From an uncultured candidatus Porisulfidus sp. (GTDB lineage: Bacteria > Pseudomonadota > Gammaproteobacteria > Poriferisulfidales > Poriferisulfidaceae), in assembly GCA_965199755.1 (NCBI GenBank), contig CBDASZ010000002.1, positions 160,001 through 224,000 of the forward strand: DNA of 64,000 nt, given 5' to 3'. Numbering within the stretch: position 1 is the first letter of the stretch; the number at the start of each line of letters is the position of its first letter. A model generated the notes under the pieces. The model was given only the letters and a program-made list of their open reading frames with translations, did no database searches and was not told where the DNA came from. Positions 1,085 through 58,603 of the stretch are shown piece after piece. The translations under genes were made by a program, and so were the position numbers.

Positions 1085-2437
1085 TCAGTCAGTACAATCA
1101 CAAGGCAGTAGAGCCTCTGCCGACGGGATGTCGTCGGGTTCAATATCTTTCAGTATGCGGTATGTCCTCTGGGCATCCACTCCCCAGAACCCAATAGTTA
1201 CAGTTTCTTCACTAGATTGCTTTTGATCGGTAGAGCGCTTAACTGGTCTCCGCTGGTAACGTTCTTCTAAATCAGCCCACCATTCGACATCTGATGGGGT
1301 ATTGGGAACACTGCGCAATGCTACCGGCAGGCTTGCATCTAAACGTTTTATTTCGCGCTGGATAACAGGGATAGCATTCTCGCCTTTCATAAAGCAGTAA
1401 ACACAATTTGATAAGTTGCTTTGGTCCGGGAGTTCCAACTGCCACGGCCGAGCACTCCAATAATCCATTACTGCATCTTTATCGACTTCCGCATCGGCTA
1501 GCGGGGTGTACACGATCTCGCCATCCGGCAGATTTGCATTTCCTCGTTCTTGCTTATTTATTCCCTTGCGGTTCCGCTGCTTAACTCTGGAAACTCTCAT
1601 AGGTTCATCAGCCCTCAAGCCAATAAGAGAAACATATTCGATCGCTCCTGACCCTGTCATCGGCGCGGTATCCCCAAGACTCCGATCCGAAAACGCAGAT
1701 TTCATAATGTACCGCGCGCCAATCTCAGAAAAATCATCAAACTTCTGAGGCAAGCAGGCGGGAGGACACCGCCGAACATATTCTTTTTTACGCAAGAGTT
1801 CCTCATCTGCCATCATGCCGCGAGACTTCTTATGGCGAGCGATAACTTCTTCATCAGTTACTAAAGACTCTTGGCGATAGTGGCCTTTGTGAGTAGTAGT
1901 TTCTTTTGCTGCAAACCATTCGCAAAGAAAATTATTTGTTGTCGATAACTTCAGATTGGTAGTGCAAATTCTTGTGTGGCGACTTGGGAGAAACCCTGCT
2001 CTACTAACCATTTCTTCAAACACCTCCCCTTTATAGTGATAACCATCAGAGTTTTCTGGACTAAATGGTTCTTTGTTGACAAGACGAAATGAGTCATGCC
2101 TTGACCAGCCACCATGAGTAGCATCTTCGTATGAAGCGTATTCCAGCCAAAAAAAGGGAATTCCTGCCTGCTCTGTGTAGTCTGCACACTTTCGGACAAA
2201 ATCATACGTTGCAGGATGCTCAGCAGACGTGTTATTGAAAATTACAACATCTCCACGAATCGGATCGAAAACACCATGGTCGAGTAAGGCCATCAGCATC
2301 ATCCCGCTGGAACGTCCACCGGAAAATTTCACAACGTGCGGTAGTCCCTGATGTGATTTCGTTTCGTACTTGATACCCAAACCAGAATGGCTTTCCGCCT
2401 TTGGGGGTTGCGAAGCACTTGAAGAAGGCGATGACAT
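1085..2437 (-). CDS. PAPS reductase / adenine-nucleotide alpha hydrolase family protein (DndC/SspD/BrxP-like), Cys-rich
   Basis: PP-loop variant VVKFSGGRSS, RICTTNLK, IGLRADE, SNCVYCFMKG, C-terminal PCDCTD. Confidence 0.85.
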   Translation of the reverse strand: MSSPSSSASQPPKAESHSGLGIKYETKSHQGLPHVVKFSGGRSSGMMLMALLDHGVFDPIRGDVVIFNNTSAEHPATYDFVRKCADYTEQAGIPFFWLEYASYEDATHGGWSRHDSFRLVNKEPFSPENSDGYHYKGEVFEEMVSRAGFLPSRHTRICTTNLKLSTTNNFLCEWFAAKETTTHKGHYRQESLVTDEEVIARHKKSRGMMADEELLRKKEYVRRCPPACLPQKFDDFSEIGARYIMKSAFSDRSLGDTAPMTGSGAIEYVSLIGLRADEPMRVSRVKQRNRKGINKQERGNANLPDGEIVYTPLADAEVDKDAVMDYWSARPWQLELPDQSNLSNCVYCFMKGENAIPVIQREIKRLDASLPVALRSVPNTPSDVEWWADLEERYQRRPVKRSTDQKQSSEETVTIGFWGVDAQRTYRILKDIEPDDIPSAEALLPCDCTD

Positions 2438-3327
2438 TAGCTAGTTCCAGAAACAATCGGTACTATTTCACTTTTGATGATTTCCTTGACTTGCGGAGGG
2501 GAAAGTGCTCCCAGCGCCTGAGTCGCTGTATGTCGCCCTATCACATCAGCCAGAGTTCTGACTTTTTCTTTGGATCGTTCGTTTGATTCCGCCAGTTGAA
2601 TAATTAAAGCTGGGCGTATATTTTGGTCCCCGATTACAGTAAGGCGGCTCACCATTGACTCAATGAGCACTTCCCAGCGTGCTGATATCCGAAGTACTTC
2701 GGATAACTCTTGAGTGGTGAAAATACTGAAAATACGTTGTGCTTCAGTCGCGTAACGATGCCTCCACCAAGCTTTTGCCAATGGACAATCCAGGTATGTT
2801 GAGCGAGCACCCCTGTCTCTAATAATCCCTCCCAAACGTCTAAGGACATCACGAACACAACTCTCGATCTCTTTGGATCTTTTCTTGGACACACGCTCCT
2901 TATTTACAATCCTGTTAATGCGATCTCTGCCAGATTGTTTCTTTTTAGAAGTTGCTAAGAACGAACTTGAAATAAGTCCTTCCTCGATAAGTTCAACATG
3001 AATCCTCGCCCAAGCACCTGGCTGCGCCGCCATTGCCACAGGGAGATCTGCCCAGGTGCTGGCAATAACTTCCTCTGTAGACCATGGCAACTCCAAGTAT
3101 TCCGACTCCGACAGTTGGTAGGGTAAGACAGAGGGAGAGTTGCCCCTTGTCACCCCCCAAGAACGAACTATTGCACAGAATTCTTGCGAGTCTTCTGCAA
3201 CAATCTCAAGAAACTTAATTCGCTCTCTTTCCGAGCTTTGCAATTCCCTTTTGGACAGCAACACACCCTGAGCTTTCTCTAAACCTCTGTGCTCAATTGC
3301 TTGAATTTCACTAGACTGAATCAGCAT
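2437..3327 (-). CDS. Hypothetical protein, tentatively DUF6339-like
   Basis: 296-aa ORF overlapping both neighbours; segments DLPVAMAAQPGAWARIH, LAKAWW and LGALSPPQV recall DUF6339 blocks (from memory, unverified). Confidence 0.6.
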   Translation of the reverse strand: MLIQSSEIQAIEHRGLEKAQGVLLSKRELQSSERERIKFLEIVAEDSQEFCAIVRSWGVTRGNSPSVLPYQLSESEYLELPWSTEEVIASTWADLPVAMAAQPGAWARIHVELIEEGLISSSFLATSKKKQSGRDRINRIVNKERVSKKRSKEIESCVRDVLRRLGGIIRDRGARSTYLDCPLAKAWWRHRYATEAQRIFSIFTTQELSEVLRISARWEVLIESMVSRLTVIGDQNIRPALIIQLAESNERSKEKVRTLADVIGRHTATQALGALSPPQVKEIIKSEIVPIVSGTS

Positions 3328-4168
3328 TGCTTACTCCACTGAATTTGAACGGTCTAAACCTAGCGGCAGCTACCTCTGCATGGAAATCTTCGTTGTCCCA
3401 AGTAGCAATACCTTCGTTTTCTAGCATCGTGTGTAACTCTCTCAAAACAGGAAACTCTTCCCAGAGGTTCCCTGAACCTTCTTTTGAACCGTATTCCCGC
3501 CGAAGGATTTCGAATCCCACTGTCAGCGCACTAGTCAAAATGCCGTTCCTATAATCTCCCTGTCCTTCAGGAGGGGTCACCAGAAAGGAATATAGTTCAG
3601 GGTGTGCAGTGACCTTAAAGTGGAATCCTTCGCTAGAACTTTCCTCTACTTTATATTCACCGGGCTTTAATTCTCCCTTTGGATCTTCAAGTAGCCTCAA
3701 CAGACTTTCAAAAGTAGACCTAAATGCCCAGAACTGGTCAATAGCAAGAATAGTTCCAGAGCGCAATTGAATTTCTCGACCGTCCCAAATGCTATGGACT
3801 CCGTGTCTCTCAGTTGACAACTTTATATTTTGGGGTTCTGCCAGCTCAACTACAACAATAGGACGAATATATACGGGAGGAACAACTTCCGCCGCATCCC
3901 AAGAGACCTTTTGAGTGCATGATATTTCGCCTCGAATCTCGCTTTTTTCTATATGCCGGAACGTTGCATACGGAGAAGAAACCTCGACCGCGAATACAGC
4001 CTTGGACTCTTTCAGTAACGATGCAACCAAGTTTTTCCCTTGAATTTCATGTCTTACATCCATGCTGTGTTTATCATCTCCCTGATCAACTGATATGCGG
4101 TATGTGCTGTTGGCATAGTCCATCCGTGATTCCTCCAAGAGAGGCAGTACTGTCGTGCTTAATGTCAT
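3311..4168 (-). CDS. Hypothetical protein (~285 aa) in the GHKL operon
   Basis: Long ORF; likely start MTLSTT at 4168 forms an ATGA overlap with the upstream stop at 4165. Confidence 0.75.
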   Translation of the reverse strand: MTLSTTVLPLLEESRMDYANSTYRISVDQGDDKHSMDVRHEIQGKNLVASLLKESKAVFAVEVSSPYATFRHIEKSEIRGEISCTQKVSWDAAEVVPPVYIRPIVVVELAEPQNIKLSTERHGVHSIWDGREIQLRSGTILAIDQFWAFRSTFESLLRLLEDPKGELKPGEYKVEESSSEGFHFKVTAHPELYSFLVTPPEGQGDYRNGILTSALTVGFEILRREYGSKEGSGNLWEEFPVLRELHTMLENEGIATWDNEDFHAEVAAARFRPFKFSGVSNADSV

Positions 4169-6094
4169 TTGGAAGTCTCCTGTTTTGAGGTCGCACGCTT
4201 GATAACTTCGACTCGGACACTCCCATGACCAGGATGTTGGCATGGAACTTGTATATCCACCTCTTTACCCAAGTCTAATTTGCCCAGGTCAATAGATACG
4301 CGCTGACCATTCGCATCTTTGTGCACATTTTCGACGCGCTTCCCATCGAGAGTCGGGTCTCCGCAGATTTCCAAAAACTGATCTGCCGGCGGCGAATCAC
4401 AAGTTTTATCAGCACCACTTGCATGCACTAGTCGCAACTCTACGTTTCTGTTCTTTTCAAGAGGCTTAAGACGAATTTGCATGCCTCCATTTTCCCAAAC
4501 GGAAGCCTGTTGTACCTTCAAATGACTTCCATGGCGCTTTATAGGGCTTGGGTTTGGAGGATAAGGTCCTAGGCGCTCGCCACCAGGATAAACTTGCGGA
4601 TCAGGTTGGTTTTGGCGCTCTGGTCGGCCAACACTTCCTTTGGGAGACTTCGGGTTTTTCTCGCGCCCGCCGCCGGTAACTTCAACCGAGAAAAATCCCG
4701 GATCAATCTCACGAGCTTCTAACTCAGGAGCAAATTCGCGGAGTTGCGCGTGTATTTCTTGGAAAAGTTTGTCGAACTGCTCACGTTTTTTCGATGTTCC
4801 CTTTCGACCCAAACGCGAAAGGTCTAGATCTATGTGCCGAGGACCTTCGGCATCGCGGATTAAATTGCATGCCTCTCCTGCAAGATCAGGATCTAGCAGT
4901 ATAAGTGCATTGAAGGGTGCCGAGCGACCGAAATTTGCTGGCTGATTGAGATGAATGGCATTGGTGACCCACATCCCGTTTCTGTACAGTTGAAGATGGG
5001 TGCCCCCCCCCCCCCTCCATAAGTTCTGATGTGTACTGGCGGAAGGCCACAGGCACAGATCCAAATGAAGTTTCGATATTTATCCGATTGGCTTCATCTA
5101 GCGTAATTGCTGCGTCCCAAGCTTGTCTTCCACTTGGCCCAATTGAATGATTCTTCCTTCGAATACGCTCCTTATAGTTTTCGAGGATTTCCCGAAGCCT
5201 ATTCCGATCGATCACACTCTCTTCCCAAGAGGGTGCTTTAACATGAATGTTCATCTTCCCTGCATGAATAGCAGGAGCAAAATGAGTAGCCGAAACACGT
5301 TCAATTTCTCTCACTACTTCCTGATCATCATCATACCGGTTAAAGCGGTTGAAACCCAAGATCCCGACCACCGATCCGGTGCCATATTCCTCTTCGATCC
5401 AATCTAGTTTTTTGCTAATAATTTTAGGAACGTCTCCATCCCAATAGTACAGAAAACGGTCTATGAGATCTTCTTCAAGTTTCGCGACTAAAAAACCGTC
5501 TTTCCCATAGTTTTCCCCGTTCAGAGCATGTGTTGCGAGGATAGTTTGGCCTGCAGCAATTCGACGCTTCTTGCCATGTTGCTCGAACACACCTCCGTAC
5601 ACGATGTAGCGAAGATCTGATGCGGGGAATGTCGTCATATGTCCATTCCCATAAGACCCTGTCGATTTCTCATCAGACTTCGTGCTTGCCCCATCCGACA
5701 ACAAGCGATTCATATTATCGGGGCTCAGCCCAATTCCGTTATCCATGACCCAAAGTATTGATGATTTATCAGCGTCAAGGGTTTCCTGCATTGCATCCGT
5801 AATGCCTTTTGCTTGCTGCAAGGTTTTTGCCCTCCGCTGAGTCTCGATCGCGCCTTCAAAATGTTCTCTGTAGTTACTGATTACCGAGATAGACTTGGTC
5901 TTCATCTCTTCAATATGAAAATGAATGTGCGCGGTATCTGATCCCTTCTTTGCCTGAAGGAAAGCATCAAGACCGTTCTGAATCAATTCGCGAAGCAGTG
6001 TGTCAGGGTCAATATTGTTGACCATGGACAGACCTGTTGGCCGGAAGCCTTCCAGTGGCCCCGCTGGATGGAACTTTAAAGTCGGTTTAGCCAT
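4165..6094 (-). CDS. GHKL (HATPase_c/MORC/Hsp90-like) ATPase, frameshifted at a G13 tract (5003-5015); ~642 aa if one G is removed
   Basis: N-box LLRELIQNGLDA, G1 VMDNGIGL, G2 GSYGNGH; ORFs 4886-6094 and 4165-5064 join at MEGGG|GTHLQLYRNG. Confidence 0.8.
5003..5015. repeat. C13 homopolymer (G13 on the coding strand)
   Basis: Counted directly; coincides with the frame switch in the GHKL gene. Confidence 0.95.
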
Positions 6095-51635: not shown

Positions 51636-53012
51636 TCAGGAATCCGCAACCGCCAGCATTTCTTCGCGGCGCGTGAATTTCTCGCGCGGCTTGCCCTTCG
51701 GCTCACCACGGCTTACTTCTTCCGTATCAATTTTCTGCCAATCCGCAAATTCCACCACGCGCGTCCCGCGTTCGGACAGGATCGATAGCAAAGCCTCCGT
51801 TCCTGCCTTCTCCGTTGGCAATGATCCCAGATCCTCCAGCAAGGAGCCGACCGTCTCCACCGCGCAGGCGCGGTTGGTGCCGATGATGCCGGAAGGACCG
51901 CGCTTGATCCAGCCGGTGGTGTACAGACCGGGCACAACCGCCCCCTCCGGGGTATCAAGCATACGCCCGGCTTCATTCGGGAATACTCCCCAGGAATCAT
52001 GGAACGGCACACCTTCGATCGGTACGCCGCGATACCCTATCGAGCGGAATAGCAGTCCGCATTCCAGCTCTTCCGTTTCCCCGGTACCACTTGCGCGCTG
52101 ACTAAACGGCTCGCCGGTCAAGGCATTGCGCTCCAGCACCACACGCTCAAGTTTGCCGTCACCTAGCAACTGCACCGGACTGCGGCAGAATGTCATCTTG
52201 CAGGTACGCGCTTTGTCGTCGCGCGGTGCCATTTTCTCGAAGATGGCCAGATTCTTGGTTGCCACCAGACTGCGCTTGCGGTCTTCCAGTTCCGCCTGAG
52301 TGGCCTCATTGAGTTCCAGTTCCTGCGGATCAATCACCGTCTGGCAATTCTCAAGTTCCAGAAACTCACGCAATTCCTTGGTGGTGAACTTGGCCTGAGC
52401 CGGTCCGCGTCGCCCGACCACCACGATTGTGCGGATGCGGCTTTCGGCCAGCGCATCCAGCGCATGCTGCGCGATGTCGGTATGTTTCAGCTCGTCGATT
52501 GATTTTGACAGGATGCGCGCGACATCCGCCGCCACATTGCCCTGCCCAATGATCACCGCGGTTTCGTGCGAGAAATCAAACTGCCGATCGCGATAGTCCG
52601 GGTGGCCGTTGTACCAGCCGACGAATTCCGTGGCCGTATGACTGCCCGGCAGATCCTCACCGTCAATCCCCAGACGCCGATCGGTTTCGGCACCGCAGGC
52701 GTAGATGACGGCATGGTAATTCTCGTTTAGCTCTTGCGGGGTGACGTCCTCTCCTACCGCCACATTGCCAAAGAAGCGGAACCCCTCCAGCGCGGCGACT
52801 TTCTTGTAGACTTCAATAGACTGCTTCAGTTTCGGGTGATCCGGTGCCACGCCGCTGCGCACCAGCCCATACGGCGACGGCAGACGCTCGATCAGGTCCA
52901 CGCATACGGCATGCTCTGATTTCAGCAGGGCCTCGGTGGCGTAGAAACCGCTCGGCCCGGCACCCACTACGGCAACCCGCAGGGACGAGGCTTCTGTCCC
53001 CAGTTGACTCAC
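51636..53012 (-). CDS. Ferredoxin-NADP+ reductase (adrenodoxin reductase/FprA type)
   Basis: VVGAGPSGFY, GLVRSGVAPDH, IIGQGNVAADVAR, GWIKRGPSGIIGTN. Confidence 0.93.
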   Translation of the reverse strand: MSQLGTEASSLRVAVVGAGPSGFYATEALLKSEHAVCVDLIERLPSPYGLVRSGVAPDHPKLKQSIEVYKKVAALEGFRFFGNVAVGEDVTPQELNENYHAVIYACGAETDRRLGIDGEDLPGSHTATEFVGWYNGHPDYRDRQFDFSHETAVIIGQGNVAADVARILSKSIDELKHTDIAQHALDALAESRIRTIVVVGRRGPAQAKFTTKELREFLELENCQTVIDPQELELNEATQAELEDRKRSLVATKNLAIFEKMAPRDDKARTCKMTFCRSPVQLLGDGKLERVVLERNALTGEPFSQRASGTGETEELECGLLFRSIGYRGVPIEGVPFHDSWGVFPNEAGRMLDTPEGAVVPGLYTTGWIKRGPSGIIGTNRACAVETVGSLLEDLGSLPTEKAGTEALLSILSERGTRVVEFADWQKIDTEEVSRGEPKGKPREKFTRREEMLAVADS

Positions 53013-53015
53013 AGG

Positions 53016-53321
53016 TCAGAAACCCAGTTCTGTCTTACGTTCTTCGGCTCCGTCCAGCGGATCTATCTTCTCTTCAATCACCGGCAGATCCGGGGCGCGC
53101 TCGGCGTTGATGTCAACCCACTCCATCTTGTCATCCGGCAGGTCATCAATCTCGTAGATAGCCTCTACCGGGCATTCGGGAATACACGCGCTGCAATCAA
53201 TGCAGACATCTGGATCGATGTACAGCATCTCGTCGTCATAATGAAAGCAGGCCACCGGGCAAACCGCCACACAGTCGGTGAAGCGGCAACCCTTGCAGTT
53301 GTCGGTTACGATCGTGGTCAT
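53016..53321 (-). CDS. Dicluster (7Fe FdxA-type) ferredoxin
   Basis: CKGCRFTDCVAVCP and CIDCSACIPECP. Confidence 0.93.
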   Translation of the reverse strand: MTTIVTDNCKGCRFTDCVAVCPVACFHYDDEMLYIDPDVCIDCSACIPECPVEAIYEIDDLPDDKMEWVDINAERAPDLPVIEEKIDPLDGAEERKTELGF

Positions 53322-53389
53322 GGAATCTCCTGAATTAAGTCACTGAACGCTTGTGCGCCACAGAAAGGTAGACAAATTATAGACGACAG

Positions 53390-54202
53390 CTACCGCGCGT
53401 CGTAAATCAATAGTTCGCCGCGAGTCTCCTCTATCGCGTCACCGCAGTACCGGCGGTAGTTTCCGCTCATCATCTCGTCACCAATCTCAAAGCCGCTTTG
53501 CCCAAGGTGGCACAAATAAAAGCGCAGGAAAATCGGCCGAAAGCGGCACGAATAACTGAAGCTCGGCAGGATGTCCATCGGCGTAAAAGAAACGATGCTG
53601 CCGCGCACCATGCCGGCACCGGCGCGAATACCCATACCGCCCATCACCACGATCGTGCCGGCGCGCATGTTGACGCCAGCAAAATCACCAGCCTGTCCGC
53701 CCACCGCAATCAGACCGCGGCGCATGGCCGAGCCCAATTCGTTTTTGACATTGCCGTGAATCAGGATCTCTCCGCCCTGCAGGCCGACGGTCTGGCCCCG
53801 GTACGCACTGCCGACCATATGTCCGGCGTCTCCCATCACGGTGATGCGCCCACCGGTCATTTCCGGTCCCACCCAGTCCGAAGCATCACCGGAGACCTGA
53901 ATCAGCCCTCCTGACATACCGGCTCCCAAGTGCATTCCCACTGAGCCATTCACACGCACTTCGCCTTCGCTCATGCCCGCGCCGATATATTTGACGCGAG
54001 ATAAATCACCTTCCAGATGCAACTGCAACTGTCCGTTGCCAGACACCTTGAAAAAGTCGCCCACCATCGCCTTCTCGTTGCCGTGCATGACTTCTAGATG
54101 CTCCACACCGGCTTGCGACAGCCCGGCGATACGTGCCGGTGACAAACATTCCGCTTCCAGTGGCACTTCCGGGCGGGTGATCAACTTCAATGCCGTGTGC
54201 AT
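53390..54202 (-). CDS. fwdC: Formylmethanofuran dehydrogenase subunit C (FwdC/FhcC)
   Basis: GxxMxxG beta-helix repeats (GAGMSEGEV, GAGMSGGLI, GSAMRRGLI); cluster context. Confidence 0.92.
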   Translation of the reverse strand: MHTALKLITRPEVPLEAECLSPARIAGLSQAGVEHLEVMHGNEKAMVGDFFKVSGNGQLQLHLEGDLSRVKYIGAGMSEGEVRVNGSVGMHLGAGMSGGLIQVSGDASDWVGPEMTGGRITVMGDAGHMVGSAYRGQTVGLQGGEILIHGNVKNELGSAMRRGLIAVGGQAGDFAGVNMRAGTIVVMGGMGIRAGAGMVRGSIVSFTPMDILPSFSYSCRFRPIFLRFYLCHLGQSGFEIGDEMMSGNYRRYCGDAIEETRGELLIYDAR

Positions 54203-54206
54203 AAGC

Positions 54207-55100
54207 CTACGCCCCTTTCAGCAGTTCGTGGAGCCCGAACTTGTACTGCCCAAGCGTGCCGCCGTAGTTGCCGGCACTGATGTAATCCGCGCCCTTGGTG
54301 GCCGCGGCGTGGATGCCGCGCTGCATCGCGTCCCGCAGCGCTTCTTCGTTCAGACCATTGACCACCACTTCGTAGACGGCGGTGATGCCCTCCGGCAGCG
54401 CGCTATCCTCCACGCGACCGCGCAAGGTTGGACAGTAGGCATGGTTGGTTGATGCAATCAGGCTCTTGTAGCGTGACCCCACCTTGCTGCCTGAACCCAC
54501 TACTCCATGCGGAAATGGCAGAAACACGCCCGCCACCTCACGCATCGCCTCAACCGCGCCGACCGCCGCGCGTAGCGCATTGCGGTGGCTGGTGCTCATC
54601 AGCAACAGGTTGCCGCCGCCAATCGTGGGCTGCACCCCGAACACATCGTCAACCAGAAACTCTCCGCCCATAATCGGAATGCGCCACATTCGCCGATCGC
54701 CAATCACCTTGGAGATCTGATGGCCATCGCCAAAAAATCGTAAGCGTTGTCCGACCGGTACCTGATTGTCACTCGCAAGCCCGTTGTAACAGGCCGTGGT
54801 GGGACAGGTCATCACGCTTTGTCCGATCCGCTCAACCAGACGCGCTGACATATCCTTTTCGCTCATGGTGAACAACAGTACGCTAACACCGGGGCGCAGA
54901 TCCGGCGTGTCCGTATCGGGCAGTTCGCATTCCACCGCCGCCTCGCACTTGCAGCGAATGACGGAGGTGGCAAATCCGGTGATCGATTGCGCCGCCGCCC
55001 GCGCCCAGTTCTTGGTCTCGGCGGTGATGATGACGCGCGAACCCCACATGCCGAAGGCTTCGGCAAAGGTATCGACGACTTCAGTCTTGCCAATATGCAT
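54207..55100 (-). CDS. ftr: Formylmethanofuran:tetrahydromethanopterin formyltransferase (Ftr/FhcD)
   Basis: DTFAEAF, GFATSVI, RIGQSVMTCPTT, FFGDG, GSKVGS, SAGNYGG. Confidence 0.96.
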   Translation of the reverse strand: MHIGKTEVVDTFAEAFGMWGSRVIITAETKNWARAAAQSITGFATSVIRCKCEAAVECELPDTDTPDLRPGVSVLLFTMSEKDMSARLVERIGQSVMTCPTTACYNGLASDNQVPVGQRLRFFGDGHQISKVIGDRRMWRIPIMGGEFLVDDVFGVQPTIGGGNLLLMSTSHRNALRAAVGAVEAMREVAGVFLPFPHGVVGSGSKVGSRYKSLIASTNHAYCPTLRGRVEDSALPEGITAVYEVVVNGLNEEALRDAMQRGIHAAATKGADYISAGNYGGTLGQYKFGLHELLKGA

Positions 55101-56818
55101 CAGGACTTCTTCTTGGTGGTCTTGCGCGCCGGTTTCTTGCGCGCGGCGGGTTTGCGGGTCGCCTGCTGCGGTTGATGTGGCGGAATGACTTCGTCATGTT
55201 CGTGCAGGTAAGAGTCCTGCACCGCGTAATTGTTGAAACGAATGGAGTAGTAGGAATCGAAGAACGGACGCAACTGCTCCTCAATACTGTCATCGTATTG
55301 CGGCTGCGCGTACAGCAACTTGCCGGTGTGATCCGCCACGAACTCGTGATCCTCAATGATCACGCGGCCGTCCTTGATGACATAGCGCGGCGCGTCGAAC
55401 ATGCGCTCGCGATCCTCATCATCGGTATACAACGTGATGTCGGCATCCGCGCCCACTCCGAGATGCCCTTTGCGCTTAAGGCCCAGCGCGCGGGCCGGTG
55501 CGGCGCGCGTGATGATGGCAATCTCGTACAGGCTGTATTCACGTTCCAGTTGCGGCAGCAGCGTCTGGCTGATCGCTTTCTGGTTGACCGCACCCATCAT
55601 TTCCTTGCGGAAGCCATAATCCATGAGCAGGCGGATCAGACGCGGATAGGTGCGGAATGACGCGCCGTTGGGGTGATCAGTCGAGAACATGACCCGCCAC
55701 GGGTCTTGCGACAGCAGGAACAACTCCAGACCAATCGCCCACTGCATGGTGTGCGTGAAATTATCTTCCTGATAGGAAAACGGCATGATGCCGCAGCCGC
55801 TTTCGCACTCGGTGTCGGCGTTCACCCACTTGGTGTCCTTGTTGCGCAGCATCCACGCAAGCGGCGCATCCGCGGTCATCGCGGTGGCCCTGCCGAACAG
55901 CACACAGCCGATATCGGTGGTGATGTTTTCATGCGTGTTGATGTAGTCGATAATCGCCTCGGAGCCGGTTTTGACGCGCGAACCCGGCTCACCACCGTAA
56001 CTGTGGAACTGGATATGCGCCATGTGCACCCGACGGCCTTCGGCCGATTTCATGGTGTCGATCGTGGTCGCGATATTGCCGCTGTGTCCGAGATTGTTAC
56101 AGTGAATGTGCGTCGGATGCGGCAGATTCAATTCGTCCACTGCCTCAATGAATGCGGAGGTGATTTGCAGAGGCGTGAGTTCAAACGGATCAATGGTCTG
56201 GTTAACATTGGTGACATTTTCGTTGCGCTTGCCTTTCCAGAGTTCATCGCTGCCTGCATTCACCAGTTTGACGGCTGTGGCACGGGTTGCATTGACCCAC
56301 CAGCCGATCGCATCCTTGAAATCCTGCTTGCGGCCTTCCTTTAGCAGGTCGTACAGGAACATGTTGTTACCCAGCAGGATATAGAAGCCCTTGTCAATCA
56401 CGGGCGTGTCGTGAAATTCCTCGATCACGTGCCGCGCCGCCATCGGCGGCACCGCGGCATCAAAGGCAGTGGTGTAACCCAGCATCGCATAGCGGTAGCC
56501 GGTGGCGAAGGTCGAAGGCGTGATGCCGCCGACGCCTGAGCGCGTCACCTCAGTGCCCGGATGCACGTCAAGGCGATGATCTTCAGGCTGCAGTTTGCGC
56601 GACAAATTGACCTTGGGCCCGGCAATATGGCAGTGGATGTCAACCCCGCCGGGCATCACCACCATGCCATGCGCGTTGATCGAGCGCGCCTGCTTCGAGA
56701 CCTTGTCCGTGATACGCCCGTCGCGTACCAGTACTTCGCGTACTTCGCCGTCCACGCCGTTGGCCGGGTCGTACACCCGCCCACCGTGAATGCGCAGTTC
56801 CGTGCCGTTGCCCGCCAC
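55100..56818 (-). CDS. fwdA: Formylmethanofuran dehydrogenase subunit A (FwdA/FhcA amidohydrolase)
   Basis: DIHCHIAGPKVN, KLVNAG, HIHCNNLG, HIQFHSYG, STDHPNG. Confidence 0.96.
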   Translation of the reverse strand: MAGNGTELRIHGGRVYDPANGVDGEVREVLVRDGRITDKVSKQARSINAHGMVVMPGGVDIHCHIAGPKVNLSRKLQPEDHRLDVHPGTEVTRSGVGGITPSTFATGYRYAMLGYTTAFDAAVPPMAARHVIEEFHDTPVIDKGFYILLGNNMFLYDLLKEGRKQDFKDAIGWWVNATRATAVKLVNAGSDELWKGKRNENVTNVNQTIDPFELTPLQITSAFIEAVDELNLPHPTHIHCNNLGHSGNIATTIDTMKSAEGRRVHMAHIQFHSYGGEPGSRVKTGSEAIIDYINTHENITTDIGCVLFGRATAMTADAPLAWMLRNKDTKWVNADTECESGCGIMPFSYQEDNFTHTMQWAIGLELFLLSQDPWRVMFSTDHPNGASFRTYPRLIRLLMDYGFRKEMMGAVNQKAISQTLLPQLEREYSLYEIAIITRAAPARALGLKRKGHLGVGADADITLYTDDEDRERMFDAPRYVIKDGRVIIEDHEFVADHTGKLLYAQPQYDDSIEEQLRPFFDSYYSIRFNNYAVQDSYLHEHDEVIPPHQPQQATRKPAARKKPARKTTKKKS

Positions 56819-56841
56819 TTGTGATATCCCGGTGTCTGGTT

Positions 56842-58203
56842 TCAGGCGGCGACCGCAAGAGAGCCGTTCGCGCGCAGCGCACGAAGCCGATCGTAAATGC
56901 CTTGCAACACGGTCTCATCGCTCGGAAACGGTGAGTCGAAAGCCGGACGCAGCGTAATCGGCACATCGTCCATGCGATATACCGTGCCACCCGTGTTGAT
57001 CCCGTAAGTCGCCACCATAAACGCCACCTGGGCCTGACGGCTGGTGTAGGTGGGCTTGGCGTCCAGCGTGATCAGCGGTATCTTCTTCAAGTGCTCAATC
57101 GCGCGCTTGGGGAAGTTCGAAGCCGGATCGGTGGCAATCATCATGGCCGCATCCGCATCGCCGCGCGCCAGCAGATCCACCGTGGTAAACTCACCCGGAT
57201 TGAAGCGAGGATAGCCGCGATGGAAGTTGACGCCAAAGGGGTAGCCGGTTTGCCAGGACACCACATTGTCGGCACCGGTCACATTGCCGTGACCGCGCAC
57301 CGGCTTGGCGACAAAATGGGTATGCTCATTGAGATCATTGGCTAATGCCAGCAAGGCACCTGAATTGAAATGCCGCCCGCGCGTCATGGTCAGTCCCATG
57401 CCGAAAAACAACACGCCATAGTTGCAATTCTTCATGCGCTCCACCAGCGCCTCGACGGTCTCGCGCGACACACCGGTTATCTCCTCTATATCTCCTGATA
57501 CGCGCCGCCCGCGCACCAGCGCGCGCAAAATCCACAGTAACTCGAAGTCGCGTCCGGGACGCACCTGGATGAATTCATCGGCGACCGGCGCACTGGGGGT
57601 CTTGCGGACGTCCACCAGCACCACATGGCGGTCTTTCTTGCCGTTCGGGATATAGCGACCTTTCGGTGTCACCGCGTAGCGTGTGAAGTGTCTTGGGTGG
57701 GACTCGGCGGGATTGCCGCCCCAGTAAATCACCAAGTCGGCGCGATTCTTGATCTCGCCGAGGGTCGCGGTGCTCTCGCCGACGCCCTGGAAAGCGATGC
57801 CCGAGGGCCCATGGCAGACCGACGTGGTAGTGTCGATATTGCCGCGTACCAGATCATTGATGGCGACGGCGACGCGCTGCGCCTCGCATGGCGAATCACT
57901 CAGCCCGTAGGTGATCGGAAAGCGCGCCTCATGCAAAATGCGCGCCGCATCGTCCATGGCATCCTCAAGCGGGGCCTCGCGGCCGTTGATCATGGCCATC
58001 GGATGATCTTCGATACCGTGATTCAGAAACCAGGCACGGCCCAGAACGCACGCATTCTTGGCCTTGGTGATGCGCATCTCATCCAGATCCACGGTCAAAT
58101 CCATGTCGTCGCACACGCAACCGCAGAAGGTGCAGGTGGCATCCTCAACAATGCGAATGTTGGGCGGAGTCTCTTTGTCCGGGGCCTCTTTGGTCTCGCT
58201 CAT
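56842..58203 (-). CDS. fwdB: Formylmethanofuran dehydrogenase subunit B (molybdopterin oxidoreductase fold)
   Basis: CTFCGCVCDD...NAC, SVCHGPS, TLGEIKNRAD, SHPRH, RGHGNV. Confidence 0.94.
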   Translation of the reverse strand: MSETKEAPDKETPPNIRIVEDATCTFCGCVCDDMDLTVDLDEMRITKAKNACVLGRAWFLNHGIEDHPMAMINGREAPLEDAMDDAARILHEARFPITYGLSDSPCEAQRVAVAINDLVRGNIDTTTSVCHGPSGIAFQGVGESTATLGEIKNRADLVIYWGGNPAESHPRHFTRYAVTPKGRYIPNGKKDRHVVLVDVRKTPSAPVADEFIQVRPGRDFELLWILRALVRGRRVSGDIEEITGVSRETVEALVERMKNCNYGVLFFGMGLTMTRGRHFNSGALLALANDLNEHTHFVAKPVRGHGNVTGADNVVSWQTGYPFGVNFHRGYPRFNPGEFTTVDLLARGDADAAMMIATDPASNFPKRAIEHLKKIPLITLDAKPTYTSRQAQVAFMVATYGINTGGTVYRMDDVPITLRPAFDSPFPSDETVLQGIYDRLRALRANGSLAVAA

Positions 58204-58246
58204 GGTCTTTCCTCTGATAATGCGCGTACGGGATTGGGGAATAGGT

Positions 58247-58603
58247 TCAGGAAGAGGCACCGAGCACTTCAAGTTCGACCACCATATGCTTGGATAAGGG
58301 CATCCCACTACCCGCGGTGTCACTTTCCATTAACTCGCTCGACGATGGGCCGTACGGAATAAACGCCATGCCGTCCGGTAAATCCTCGTCCTTGCGCGGC
58401 TTGCCGCACACCACCTCGACCGTTCCGGTCGGGCAGGACAGGCGCACCTTGTCACCGACGCTCAGATCGAGCCGGGCCATCAGGCTCTCGTTCAACTCCA
58501 GCGTTGAGGTGACGGTCTGATACTCCTCCTTGAGCTTGCCTCCATTGAGGGAGGTGCCCTGCTTGTTCGACCGTCCTGGAATCAGGATCAACTGTTCGGG
58601 CAT
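58247..58603 (-). CDS. fwdD: Formylmethanofuran dehydrogenase subunit D (molybdopterin dinucleotide-binding)
   Basis: ILIPGRSNKQG, GMAFIPYGP, TAGSGMP; directly upstream of fwdB. Confidence 0.85.
   Translation of the reverse strand: MPEQLILIPGRSNKQGTSLNGGKLKEEYQTVTSTLELNESLMARLDLSVGDKVRLSCPTGTVEVVCGKPRKDEDLPDGMAFIPYGPSSSELMESDTAGSGMPLSKHMVVELEVLGASS

What the first reader, a model, noticed from the sequence alone, without database searches (positions are those of the whole stretch)
53390..58603. Archaeal-style, apparently redox-competent formylmethanofuran dehydrogenase in a gammaproteobacterium
Seen: fwdD-fwdB-fwdA-ftr-fwdC. The B subunit keeps the [4Fe-4S] motif CxxCxxxC..C, the Cys-His pair (SVCHGP) at the Mo/W-ligand position and RGH, and a separate D subunit is present. 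Known: the characterised Methylorubrum Fhc complex has a degenerate FhcB with no pterin or Fe-S, has no FwdD, and releases formate. Inference: this organism may oxidise formyl units to CO2, or reduce CO2, within the complex, representing an intact ancestral form of bacterial H4MPT/methanofuran C1 metabolism.
Basis: partly seen in the sequence, partly recalled or inferred. Interest (0 to 1): 0.8.

Follow-up and report, generated by a model that had tools for sequence, protein, structure and literature searches.

The report
Bacterial formylmethanofuran dehydrogenase wired to NADP
A small-genome gammaproteobacterium carries a formylmethanofuran dehydrogenase that looks catalytically complete and always sits beside its own ferredoxin and an NADPH-ferredoxin reductase, so it probably burns one-carbon units straight to CO2 and makes NADPH instead of releasing formate as the textbook bacterial enzyme does.

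Summary
fwdD-fwdB-fwdA-ftr-fwdC lies on the minus strand at exactly 58603..53390. FwdB keeps the four Fe-S cysteines, the Cys-His pair and Arg-Gly-His, and matches archaeal FwdB far better than Methylorubrum FhcB (E 2e-113 against 6e-12).

New here: the operon runs on into two more genes, a 7Fe ferredoxin and an FprA/adrenodoxin-reductase-type NADPH:ferredoxin reductase.
- They accompany intact FwdB in 41 of 43 viewable related loci, even where gene order is rearranged.
- In 61 related genomes they are found in the same genomes as intact FwdB (41 hold all of them).
- None of the 8 genomes in that set with only a degenerate FhcB has them.
- In one lineage FwdD is inserted inside FprA as a single 577-aa protein.

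The genome also encodes fae, mtdB-like, mch, an MfnB homologue, MoeA, MoaE, MobA and a TupA-like tungstate-binding protein.

Best reading (confidence 0.55): a formyltransferase/dehydrogenase complex that oxidises formyl-H4MPT to CO2 and passes the electrons through the dedicated ferredoxin and FprA to NADP+.

The type is widespread (20 of 401 sampled class genomes) but I found no description of it. The "ancestral form" claim could not be tested. It is a new variant of a known kind.

The parts
58247..58603 (-). fwdD: the small 'domain IV' cap of the pterin site (118 aa from the ATG at 58603)
   Evidence: Pfam Molydop_binding 32.8 bits. NF042908 FwdD 58.6 bits, below its cut-off of 175. Solved FwdD chains: 2ki8 E 1.6e-11, 5t5i_D E 3.1e-10. 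52-row alignment A2 with 71% mean column identity.
56842..58203 (-). fwdB: Mo/W-bisPGD and [4Fe-4S] subunit with all catalytic residues kept (453 aa)
   Evidence: TIGR03129 498.5 bits. 8rja_B E 2.2e-113 and 5t5i_B E 1.6e-108, against FhcB 6s6y_B E 6.1e-12 over the C-terminal half only. Motifs located and kept in 55 of 56 rows.
55100..56818 (-). fwdA: amidohydrolase-type formyl-MFR hydrolase/synthase subunit (572 aa), ending in a Lys/Arg-rich tail
   Evidence: TIGR03121 684.7 bits. 8rja_A 472 bits and 5t5i_A 444.9 bits, against FhcA 6s6y_A 366.3 bits. Tail compared across relatives.
54207..55100 (-). ftr (= fhcD): formylmethanofuran:H4MPT formyltransferase (297 aa); its start overlaps the end of fwdA by one base
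   Evidence: NF002554 415 bits, TIGR03119 395.5 bits. 1ftr_A 285.9 bits, 6s6y_D 276.3 bits.
53390..54202 (-). fwdC: beta-helix scaffold subunit (270 aa)
   Evidence: TIGR03122 252.1 bits. Archaeal FwdC chains align to residues 10-222 only, whereas FhcC 6s6y_C aligns over 19-266.
53016..53321 (-). fdx: dedicated 7Fe (Azotobacter FdI-type) ferredoxin, 68 nt downstream of fwdC (101 aa)
   Evidence: Fer4 families plus DUF3470. A. vinelandii FdI chains E about 1e-27. The fwd-linked paralogue (66-100% identity) is in 42 of 61 genomes; a separate 44-55% copy lies elsewhere, in the own genome at C1:713509-713793.
51636..53012 (-). fprA: FAD-dependent NADPH:ferredoxin reductase of the FprA/adrenodoxin-reductase type, 3 nt downstream of fdx (458 aa)
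   Evidence: M. tuberculosis FprA 1lqt E 1e-114; adrenodoxin reductase 1cjc E 5.7e-110. Found in 42 of 61 related genomes. Adjacent to intact fwd in 41 of 43 viewable loci. Fused with FwdD in L031.

Best explanation
The seven genes fwdD-fwdB-fwdA-ftr-fwdC-fdx-fprA encode one machine, a formyltransferase/dehydrogenase complex that finishes H4MPT-linked formaldehyde oxidation without releasing formate.

Proposed steps.
1. Ftr moves the formyl group from formyl-H4MPT to (methylo)furan.
2. FwdA hydrolyses formyl-MFR.
3. The formate is oxidised to CO2 at the Cys-ligated W (or Mo) bis-pterin site of FwdB, which FwdD caps.
4. The two electrons leave through the FwdB [4Fe-4S] cluster to the dedicated 7Fe ferredoxin.
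5. The ferredoxin passes them to the FAD of FprA, which reduces NADP+.

Net reaction: formyl-H4MPT + NADP+ -> CO2 + H4MPT + NADPH.

Shown by sequence: gene content, residue conservation, gene linkage, the natural fusion, and the cofactor pathways in the genome.

Inferred: that the metal cofactor is really bound, the direction, the order of electron carriers, NADP+ as final acceptor, and whether ferredoxin and FprA are bound subunits or soluble partners.
For: 1. The catalytic kit is intact and under selection. Nine key residues are kept in 55 of 56 intact-type rows and lost in 9 of 9 degenerate paralogues. FwdB matches cofactor-containing archaeal FwdB at E 2e-113. FwdD is present.

2. Linkage. 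Of 48 loci found with FwdB, 5 end too early to judge. Of the other 43, 41 have fdx and/or fprA next to the fwd genes.
- 37 have them downstream.
- 4 are rearranged: fdx-fprA upstream in L073, L069 and L070; fprA upstream in L071.
- 2 have none (L064, L066).
- In an evenly drawn class sample, 9 of 9 viewable loci outside the order also have fprA adjacent, and 3 more were cut by contig ends. Some of these records repeat those.

3. Co-occurrence in 61 related genomes.
- 42 have intact FwdB (490 bits or more).
- 42 have FprA.
- The same 42 that have FprA have the linked ferredoxin.
- 41 have all of them.
- The exceptions are G029 (87% complete, gene at a contig end) and G014 (76% complete).
- None of the 8 genomes with only a degenerate B has FprA or the linked ferredoxin.

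4. The ferredoxin is a dedicated paralogue. A second FdI-like copy at 44-55% identity is present in 15 of the 19 genomes without the linked one, and also in the window's own genome.

5. Natural fusion. In L031 (G018) a single 577-aa ORF is FprA with FwdD inserted mid-chain, and there is no separate fwdD. The protein database holds it as one cluster of 9 member sequences on 5 contigs from four sources, with Pfam PF13450+PF07992+PF01568.

6. Precedent. The best solved match, 8RJA, is an oxidative Fwd wired to a bound flavin reductase that reduces F420 (PMC11493965, abstract and passages).

7. Energetics. CO2/formyl-MFR is about -0.53 V (passage). NADP+/NADPH is about -0.32 V (textbook value, recalled), so oxidation is downhill.

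8. Cofactor supply in the same genome: fae, mch, an mtdB-like gene, RFAP synthase, MfnB; MoeA, MoaE, MobA, an FdhD-like protein; TupA/TupB-like proteins, and no ModA found.

9. Weak hint of expression. Contigs from four metatranscriptome libraries of one study match at 99% or more. One bridges fwdC-fdx-fprA (52886-53506).
Against: - There is no biochemical evidence at all. Metal content, activity and acceptor are inferred.
- FwdD scores well under its NCBIfam cut-off (58.6 against 175), the FdhD-like protein is under its cut-off (120.9 against 140.9), and TupA/TupB are under theirs.
- The genome also has a complete FdsA-type NAD-linked formate dehydrogenase (TIGR01591, 747 bits, with a NuoF-like partner). 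A route through free formate therefore exists, and the Moco genes are not specific evidence for FwdB.
- A 68-nt gap containing a TATAAT-like string separates fwdC from fdx. In three relatives 0.9-2.3 kb is inserted there. So fdx-fprA may be transcribed separately.
- Two intact-type loci (L064, L066) show no fdx or fprA nearby.
- The RNA-library contigs cannot exclude DNA carry-over and cannot show a single transcript.
- Related genomes are not independent, so the co-occurrence counts overstate the support.
- No formaldehyde source was identified. No PQQ methanol dehydrogenase was found: TIGR03075 best 27.6 bits against a cut-off of 480.
Confidence: 0.55

Rival explanations
1. FwdBD is redox-active, but the physiological acceptor is the ferredoxin itself, or another carrier. 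The complex would then supply low-potential reduced ferredoxin for biosynthesis. FprA would only balance the ferredoxin and NADP(H) pools, or would run the other way.
For: Archaeal Fwd/Fmd complexes are generally taken to be ferredoxin-linked (PMC11493965 passages). In all but one lineage FprA is a separate protein. The fwdC-fdx gap and the insertions there allow separate regulation.
Against: FprA is as tightly linked to intact fwd as the ferredoxin is: the same 42 of 61 genomes. It stays adjacent through rearrangements. In one lineage it is covalently fused to FwdD, which is hard to explain for a mere pool-balancing enzyme.
Confidence: 0.15
2. The fdx-fprA pair is a general NADPH:ferredoxin system that merely travels with the fwd genes. 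FwdB hands its electrons to something else.
For: FprA-type reductases form a very large family: 8000 candidates were all scored at E <= 1e-20. Ferredoxin-reductase pairs serve many enzymes. Two intact-type loci lack the pair.
Against: A separate FdI-like ferredoxin already exists in these genomes. FprA was not found in any of the 8 related genomes that have only a degenerate FhcB. Adjacency survives four different rearrangements. The FwdD insertion in FprA exists.
Confidence: 0.1
3. The complex works like Methylorubrum Fhc. It would be a formyltransferase/hydrolase that releases formate, with FwdB and FwdD as scaffolds whose redox motifs persist without use. Formate would then go to the FdsA-type dehydrogenase.
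For: The gene order B-A-ftr-C is that of fhcBADC. The FwdC C-terminus aligns only with FhcC. A complete NAD-linked formate dehydrogenase is present.
Against: All nine Fe-S and active-site residues are kept in 55 of 56 rows spanning 62-93% identity, while true degenerate paralogues lost the active site in 9 of 9 rows. FwdD is retained everywhere. Many genomes carry a degenerate Fhc cluster right beside the intact one, which argues for different jobs.
Confidence: 0.08
4. The complex runs in the methanogen direction and reduces CO2 to formyl-MFR for C1 assimilation.
For: Fwd is reversible in archaea. The [4Fe-4S] cluster of FdI-type ferredoxins is very low-potential (recalled).
Against: NADPH is about 0.2 V too positive to drive CO2 reduction at -0.53 V (the NADP value is recalled). 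No electron-bifurcating or polyferredoxin module is encoded in the operon. fae, mtdB-like and mch fit an oxidative pathway.
Confidence: 0.05

Closest known systems
F420-reducing formylmethanofuran dehydrogenase of Candidatus Ethanoperedens thermophilum (PDB 8RJA; PMC11493965)
   Same: It is the best solved match for both FwdB (E 2.2e-113) and FwdA (472 bits). It is an oxidative Fwd whose electrons are led to a flavin-dependent reductase that loads a hydride carrier.
   Different: Here the reductase is an FprA/adrenodoxin-reductase-type FAD enzyme acting on NADP, not an FrhB-like F420 reductase. The bridge is a separate 7Fe ferredoxin rather than Fe-S domains of bound subunits. Ftr is encoded inside the operon. 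The host is a bacterium.
Tungsten formylmethanofuran dehydrogenase FwdABCDFG of Methanothermobacter wolfeii (PDB 5T5I)
   Same: FwdA, B, C and D are all present. Cys118, His119, Arg288 and the N-terminal Fe-S cysteines are matched.
   Different: No FwdF polyferredoxin or FwdG is encoded. The 7Fe ferredoxin matches 5t5i_G only at E 3.8e-4. The likely direction is oxidative. ftr lies inside the operon.
Formyltransferase/hydrolase complex FhcABCD of Methylorubrum extorquens (PDB 6S6Y; PMC6926001)
   Same: Same gene order B-A-ftr(D)-C. It works on H4MPT and methylofuran in an aerobic bacterium. The FwdC C-terminus aligns with FhcC. Ftr is equally close to it (276 against 286 bits).
   Different: FhcB (361 aa) lacks the Fe-S domain, Cys118, His119 and Arg288, and there is no FwdD; formate is released. 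The window's FwdB matches it only at E 6e-12 over its C-terminal half.
fwdDBA-ftr-fwdC operon of Hakuba Actinobacteria single-cell genomes (PMC7325909)
   Same: Identical five-gene order. FwdB has an N-terminal [4Fe-4S] domain and Cys118. There are no fwdE, fwdF or fwdG genes (passages read).
   Different: That paper reports no methanopterin biosynthesis genes, and the passages I read describe no ferredoxin-FprA partner. Here the H4MPT and MFR pathways and the fdx-fprA pair are present.
FprA / 7Fe-ferredoxin electron-transfer pair (M. tuberculosis FprA, PDB 1LQT; A. vinelandii FdI)
   Same: FprA-like protein E 1e-114; ferredoxin E about 1e-27. That FprA reduces 7Fe ferredoxins is recalled. Of PMC6208970 I saw only the search listing.
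   Different: Known pairs pass electrons from NADPH to P450s and other acceptors. Here the flow is proposed to run from a molybdo/tungsto-enzyme to NADP+.

Membership tests
Redox-active formylmethanofuran dehydrogenase (Fwd/Fmd) | FwdB with a Cys or Sec metal ligand followed by His, and the catalytic Arg | tested here: met
   C131-H132 and R304 align with Cys118, His119 and Arg288 of 5t5i_B. Kept in 55 of 56 rows.
Redox-active formylmethanofuran dehydrogenase (Fwd/Fmd) | N-terminal [4Fe-4S] domain in FwdB (CxxCxxxC...C) | tested here: met
   C25, C28, C32 and C53 are present and conserved.
Redox-active formylmethanofuran dehydrogenase (Fwd/Fmd) | FwdD cap domain | tested here: met
   Pfam PF01568 is above its cut-off and solved FwdD chains are hit. 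The NCBIfam FwdD model is below its cut-off (58.6 against 175).
Redox-active formylmethanofuran dehydrogenase (Fwd/Fmd) | FwdA amidohydrolase and FwdC subunits | tested here: met
   TIGR03121 684.7 bits and TIGR03122 252.1 bits, both above their cut-offs. The individual metal ligands of FwdA were not mapped with a tool.
Redox-active formylmethanofuran dehydrogenase (Fwd/Fmd) | FwdG/FwdF-type (poly)ferredoxin electron-transfer subunits | tested here: not met
   No such gene lies in or beside the operon. In their place stands an FdI-type 7Fe ferredoxin together with FprA.
Redox-active formylmethanofuran dehydrogenase (Fwd/Fmd) | Bound W- or Mo-bisPGD and formyl-MFR dehydrogenase activity | not testable with these tools
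   Only the supply genes were seen: MoeA, MoaE, MobA, an FdhD-like protein and a TupA-like protein.
Formyltransferase/hydrolase complex (Fhc) | ftr (fhcD) within the operon, in the order B-A-D-C | tested here: met
   fwdB-fwdA-ftr-fwdC; compare fhcBADC in Hemmann 2019.
Formyltransferase/hydrolase complex (Fhc) | B subunit without pterin-binding or Fe-S motifs, and no FwdD | tested here: not met
   All motifs and FwdD are present. 6s6y_B is matched only at E 6.1e-12.
Formyltransferase/hydrolase complex (Fhc) | Formate is the released product | not testable with these tools
   This needs an enzyme assay.
FprA/adrenodoxin-reductase-type NADPH:ferredoxin reductase | Full-length similarity to solved members with FAD and NADP domains | tested here: met
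   1lqt_A E 1e-114 over residues 13-455; 1cjc_A E 5.7e-110. Nucleotide specificity was not tested.
Azotobacter FdI-type 7Fe ferredoxin | CxxCxxxxCxxxCP and CxxCxxCxxxCP motifs plus a C-terminal extension | tested here: met
   The motifs are read directly from the sequence. DUF3470 is present. FdI chains E about 1e-27. That this pattern binds [3Fe-4S] plus [4Fe-4S] rests on the names of the solved entries and on recall.

The most novel reading that the evidence does not exclude
A widespread but undescribed bacterial enzyme, a seven-protein formyl-H4MPT:NADP+ oxidoreductase. In it an Fhc-like formyltransferase/hydrolase core keeps a working tungsto- or molybdopterin dehydrogenase. That core is wired to NADP+ through its own 7Fe ferredoxin and an FprA reductase that docks on FwdD.

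In about one in twenty sampled Gammaproteobacteria genomes, C1 oxidation would then bypass free formate and yield NADPH. Close homologues come from Candidatus Porisulfidus bins and from a bin named 'USCg_Taylor'. Where the intact cluster sits in tandem with a degenerate Fhc, the cell could split flux between formate and CO2+NADPH.
Probability: 0.5. Interest if true: 0.82.

Novelty: new variant of a known kind. Interest (0 to 1): 0.7.

Why it matters
The accepted picture is that bacteria using H4MPT and methanofuran end the pathway with the redox-dead Fhc complex, release formate, and oxidise it with separate formate dehydrogenases. On that picture a working formylmethanofuran dehydrogenase belongs to archaea and a few anaerobic bacteria.

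A review states that fwdD is not present in Proteobacteria (PMC5020050). Here an intact fwdDB is common in Gammaproteobacteria:
- 20 of 401 evenly sampled genomes (four of the 20 are unpublished genomes);
- 5119 database proteins at E <= 1e-30, the best 120 all at least 74% identical.

It also carries its own route to NADP. If confirmed, this would:
- change carbon and redox budgets for C1 oxidation in these bacteria;
- give a second natural example, after the F420-reducing archaeal enzyme, of Fwd rewired to a hydride carrier;
- provide graded intermediates for how Fhc lost its dehydrogenase, since there are degenerate B subunits that still keep the Fe-S cysteines;
- offer an NADP(H)-linked CO2/formyl enzyme from bacteria whose relatives are aerobes, which is of interest for biocatalysis.

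Tried and rejected
1. Complex prediction with FprA (alignment A1) and FwdD (alignment A2). The tool was unreachable. It accepted the job and returned 'no answer' (score 0.00, mark 0.32). This is neither support nor evidence against binding.

2. Structure of the FprA::FwdD fusion. The combined alignment A3 put the middle of FprA onto the FwdD insert, so I did not send it to structure prediction.

3. Rooting the family.
- The search of protein representatives gave 150 representatives, but the listing of cluster members named an organism for only one of ten clusters (Pirellulales, degenerate type).
- No archaeal sequences could be labelled, so no rooted tree was built.
- The A-subunit tree is the quick search only (the careful one did not finish). 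It is midpoint-rooted and bacterial only.
- It separates A subunits that accompany an intact B from those that accompany a degenerate B by one branch (SH-aLRT 99). One long-branch Gemmatimonadota paralogue sits beside the intact clade. The tree says nothing about which state is ancestral.
- Rows left out of it: L021 and L030 (duplicates of L074 and L040), matches under 500 residues, matches containing a stop, and identical sequences.

4. Promoter and terminator scan. It found 3 promoter-like sites (3.3 expected) and 9 terminator-like sites (6.5 expected), which is uninformative.

5. Parts of the stretch without RNA-library contigs are not evidence of silence.

6. A PQQ methanol dehydrogenase as the formaldehyde source was not found. 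The C1 source remains open.

7. Literature. Searches returned no paper that links formylmethanofuran dehydrogenase with FprA or ferredoxin-NADP reductase, or that describes an intact fwdDB in Proteobacteria. This covers only the open-access library. Supplements are closed, so the supplementary tables of Wells 2023 and Figure S4 of Merino 2020 were not seen. They may list the bacterial taxa or alignments.

Full report
WHAT IS THERE

The region holds seven tightly packed genes on the minus strand, not five:
- fwdD 58603..58247
- fwdB 58203..56842
- fwdA 56818..55100
- ftr 55100..54207
- fwdC 54202..53390
- a ferredoxin gene 53321..53016
- a flavoprotein gene 53012..51636

The gaps between them are 43, 23, -1, 4, 68 and 3 nt. 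Upstream lie nusA-infB-rbfA-truB. Downstream lies a convergent MFS transporter gene, then dnaX and recR.

Curated models name four of the five above their cut-offs:
- FwdB: TIGR03129, 498.5 bits (cut-off 327.8)
- FwdA: TIGR03121, 684.7 bits
- Ftr: NF002554, 415 bits
- FwdC: TIGR03122, 252.1 bits

FwdD is weaker. It scores 58.6 bits on NF042908 against a cut-off of 175, but it passes Pfam Molydop_binding and it matches solved FwdD chains.

IS FwdB OF THE WORKING KIND?

- Against solved structures, FwdB matches archaeal FwdB over its full length (8rja_B E 2.2e-113, 5t5i_B E 1.6e-108). It matches Methylorubrum FhcB (6s6y_B) only at E 6.1e-12 over its C-terminal half.
- In the printed alignment, C131-H132 and R304 of the window protein lie on Cys118, His119 and Arg288 of the M. 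wolfeii enzyme.
- Hemmann et al. 2019 (PMC6926001, passages read) state that these residues are replaced in FhcB. They also say FhcB lacks the N-terminal [4Fe-4S] domain and that FwdD is absent from Fhc.
- The four N-terminal cysteines (C25, C28, C32, C53) are present.
- I extracted 64 B-subunit homologues from fetched loci. At least two genomes appear twice (L021/L074 and L030/L040). All nine residues are kept in 55 of 56 intact-type rows, the window included; the 56th row was a failed extraction.
- The nine degenerate paralogues (23-35% identical) have all lost C131, H132 and R304.

THE NEW ELEMENT: A DEDICATED FERREDOXIN AND AN NADPH:FERREDOXIN REDUCTASE

The 101-aa protein is an Azotobacter FdI-type 7Fe ferredoxin (E about 1e-27; Fer4 plus DUF3470). 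The 458-aa protein is an FprA/adrenodoxin-reductase-type enzyme (M. tuberculosis FprA E 1e-114, bovine adrenodoxin reductase E 5.7e-110). Five lines of evidence tie them to the fwd genes.

(a) Synteny.
- In 12 loci fetched from relatives, all 8 with an intact B have D-B-A-ftr-C-fdx-fprA. All 4 with a degenerate B have only B-A-ftr-C.
- In the 48 loci found in public genomes with FwdB as query, 5 are cut too early to judge. Of the other 43, 41 have fdx and/or fprA adjacent.
- 37 of those 41 have them downstream.
- 4 of those 41 are rearranged: fdx-fprA upstream in L073, L069 and L070, and fprA upstream in L071.
- 2 loci (L064, L066) show neither.
- In an evenly drawn class sample, 9 of 9 viewable loci outside the order have fprA adjacent, and 3 were cut by contig ends. 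Some of these records are the same as.

(b) Co-occurrence in 61 related genomes.
- Intact FwdB (490 bits or more) is in 42.
- FprA is in 42.
- The linked ferredoxin (66-100% identity) is in the same 42 as FprA.
- 41 genomes have everything.
- G029 lacks FprA and the ferredoxin; it is 87% complete and the gene lies at a contig end.
- G014 lacks FwdB; it is 76% complete.
- None of the 8 genomes with only a degenerate B has FprA or the linked ferredoxin.
- Kin are not independent, but within one family three genera have the whole set and three have none.

(c) The ferredoxin is a dedicated paralogue. A second FdI-like gene, 44-55% identical, lies elsewhere in 28 of the 42 genomes, including the window's own (C1:713509-713793). 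It is also in 15 of the 19 genomes that lack the linked copy.

(d) A natural fusion.
- In L031 (G018, a fourth family of the order) one 577-aa ORF is FprA with the whole FwdD domain inserted mid-chain, and no separate fwdD precedes fwdB.
- The protein database holds it as one cluster of 9 member sequences on 5 contigs from four sources, with Pfam PF13450, PF07992 and PF01568.
- The other 119 listed relatives are unfused proteins of 456-465 aa.
- The fusion is rare, but it was seen in several assemblies, and it puts FprA physically on the Fwd complex in that lineage.

(e) Weak support from RNA libraries. Contigs from four metatranscriptome libraries of one study match at 99% or more. One bridges fprA-fdx-fwdC (52886-53506), one bridges fwdA and fwdB, and one bridges fwdB and fwdD. 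Contigs cannot prove a single transcript or exclude DNA carry-over.

THE REST OF THE PATHWAY

The genome is 1.39 Mb in 4 contigs and 98.9% complete. It encodes the following.
- An H4MPT island: RFAP synthase, an Mpt_N (mtdB-like) dehydrogenase, two ATP-grasp proteins, mch, a CitG-like protein and fae, next to moaE and moeA.
- An MfnB homologue for the furan cofactor (168.5 bits).
- MobA (212 bits) and an FdhD-like protein (120.9 bits, below its cut-off of 140.9).
- A tupB / ABC-ATPase / tupA-like cluster (TupA model 222 bits, below its cut-off of 400), while ModA was not found. This hints at tungsten but does not show it.
- An FdsA-type NAD-linked formate dehydrogenase with a NuoF-like partner. 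Free formate could therefore also be oxidised, and the Moco genes are not specific to FwdB.
- No PQQ methanol dehydrogenase was found, so the source of formaldehyde is unknown.

MECHANISM PROPOSED

Ftr transfers the formyl group from H4MPT to the furan cofactor. FwdA hydrolyses it. FwdB/D oxidises the formate to CO2. Electrons then pass from the FwdB [4Fe-4S] cluster to the 7Fe ferredoxin, to the FAD of FprA, and to NADP+.

- CO2/formyl-MFR is about -0.53 V (passage in PMC11656701). NADP+/NADPH is about -0.32 V (recalled). So oxidation is strongly downhill, and CO2 reduction by NADPH is not feasible.
- There is a structural precedent. The best solved match for both FwdB and FwdA is 8RJA, the Fwd of an ethane-oxidising archaeon, which carries a bound flavin reductase and reduces F420 (PMC11493965, abstract and passages).
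- The complex is a hybrid. B and A are nearer to archaeal subunits.
- On the Fhc side, the order B-A-ftr-C is that of fhcBADC, Ftr is equidistant from archaeal Ftr and FhcD, and only FhcC aligns with the C-terminus of FwdC. Hemmann et al. describe FhcC as the binding platform for the formyltransferase FhcD and note that its C-terminal part differs from FwdC.

All of this is inference from sequence. Nothing here shows a bound metal, an activity or an acceptor.

HOW COMMON, AND IS IT KNOWN?

- In 401 evenly sampled genomes of the class, 55 have a B homologue at E <= 1e-40.
- Scores are bimodal: 20 genomes score 494 bits or more, from at least 11 families, and the next best is 409 bits.
- 14 of those 20 also carry a lower-scoring paralogue. 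Four of the 20 are unpublished genomes (G091, G192, G346, G358). Without them the count is 16 of 397.
- The two genomes with intermediate scores that I fetched (G229, G390) are of the degenerate type.
- The protein database holds 5119 relatives at E <= 1e-30 among 8000 scored. The best 120 are all at least 74% identical. Where named, they are filed under Gammaproteobacteria or Chromatiales, and one is annotated 'Fhc subunit B' in a bin called USCg_Taylor.
- Wells et al. [quoted passage not shown]
- Merino et al. 2020 describe the same fwdDBA-ftr-fwdC order with an Fe-S domain and Cys118 in Actinobacteria single-cell genomes.
- None of my nine searches returned a paper that links Fwd to an FprA-type reductase. 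Supplements were closed.

I therefore rate this a new variant of a known kind. The gene set is routinely annotated, but its difference from Fhc and its NADP link appear undescribed.

THE 'ANCESTRAL' CLAIM

- A quick maximum-likelihood tree of 69 bacterial A subunits puts all 55 that accompany an intact B on one side of a branch (SH-aLRT 99) and 13 of the 14 that accompany a degenerate B on the other.
- The split is therefore old, and in this sample it is not a matter of repeated recent decay.
- The tree has no outgroup, and the gene tree does not follow taxonomy. Families f2 and f4 of the order group with other families of the class. Bins labelled Gemmatimonadota, Betaproteobacteria and Anaerolineae sit inside or beside the clade.
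- Retention, transfer and mis-binning cannot be separated here.
- Many degenerate B subunits still keep the four Fe-S cysteines. Among the 94 of 150 representatives with all nine columns filled, 92 keep the four Fe-S cysteines, but only 15 keep the Cys-His and Arg set. These look like intermediate stages towards the truncated Methylorubrum FhcB.

VERDICT

The added finding is the conserved link to a ferredoxin and FprA, including a natural fusion. Confidence in the full NADP-linked mechanism is 0.55, and interest is 0.7.

Noticed in passing
window 1085-6094: A low-GC stretch (46-47% against about 59% elsewhere) with five consecutive minus-strand ORFs (450, 296, 310, 299 and 402 aa). None has a Pfam match at E 1e-5. 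It may be a foreign island.
   Followed up: partly
L026-L029, L065, L069-L071, L075 (degenerate B paralogues); representatives P0241-P0390: Degenerate FhcB-like proteins of about 420-440 aa mostly keep the N-terminal four-Cys Fe-S motif although the Cys-His and Arg site is gone. In one search, 5 of 9 keep four Cys and 3 of 9 keep three. In one search, 92 of 94 representatives keep four Cys and only 15 keep the active site. This differs from the truncated 361-aa Methylorubrum FhcB and suggests stepwise decay, or a remaining Fe-S role.
   Followed up: partly
L065, L075, L090, L091, L095, L097, L100; L069-L071: In many genomes the intact seven-gene block stands in tandem with a degenerate fhcB'-fhcA'-ftr' cluster. 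In the Gemmatimonadales-labelled bins the two are interleaved around fdx-fprA.
   Followed up: partly
L031:2857-4590 (minus strand), G018: A single 577-aa ORF is FprA with the FwdD domain inserted between its two halves. The database holds it as one cluster of 9 sequences on 5 contigs.
   Followed up: yes
P0241, P0242, P0244, P0248, P0253, P0269, P0303, P0368: Eight of the 150 nearest representatives are FwdD-FwdB fusions with D at the N-terminus (570-640 aa). Five of them keep the Cys-His and Arg site.
   Followed up: partly
window 55100-55190 (C-terminus of FwdA); same-genus loci: In this genus FwdA ends in a Lys/Arg-rich tail that other families lack. It might touch the polyglutamate chain of methylofuran, but that is pure speculation.
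   Followed up: partly
L036, L042, L044 between fwdC and fdx; L065:3840-4184: In three relatives 0.9-2.3 kb is inserted between fwdC and fdx. In L065 the fwdD match contains one in-frame stop.
   Followed up: no
G000:C2:354.3-356.4 kb (L086) and whole genome: A tupB-like / ABC-ATPase / tupA-like cluster is present (all below their NCBIfam cut-offs), while no ModA was found in this 98.9%-complete genome. The molybdo/tungsto-enzymes here may use tungsten.
   Followed up: partly
G000:C1:352-356.5 kb (L020): A 979-aa FdsA-type formate dehydrogenase alpha subunit with a NuoF-like partner lies beside a MauG/MbnH-family di-haem enzyme and a TlpA-like thiol-disulfide oxidoreductase.
   Followed up: no
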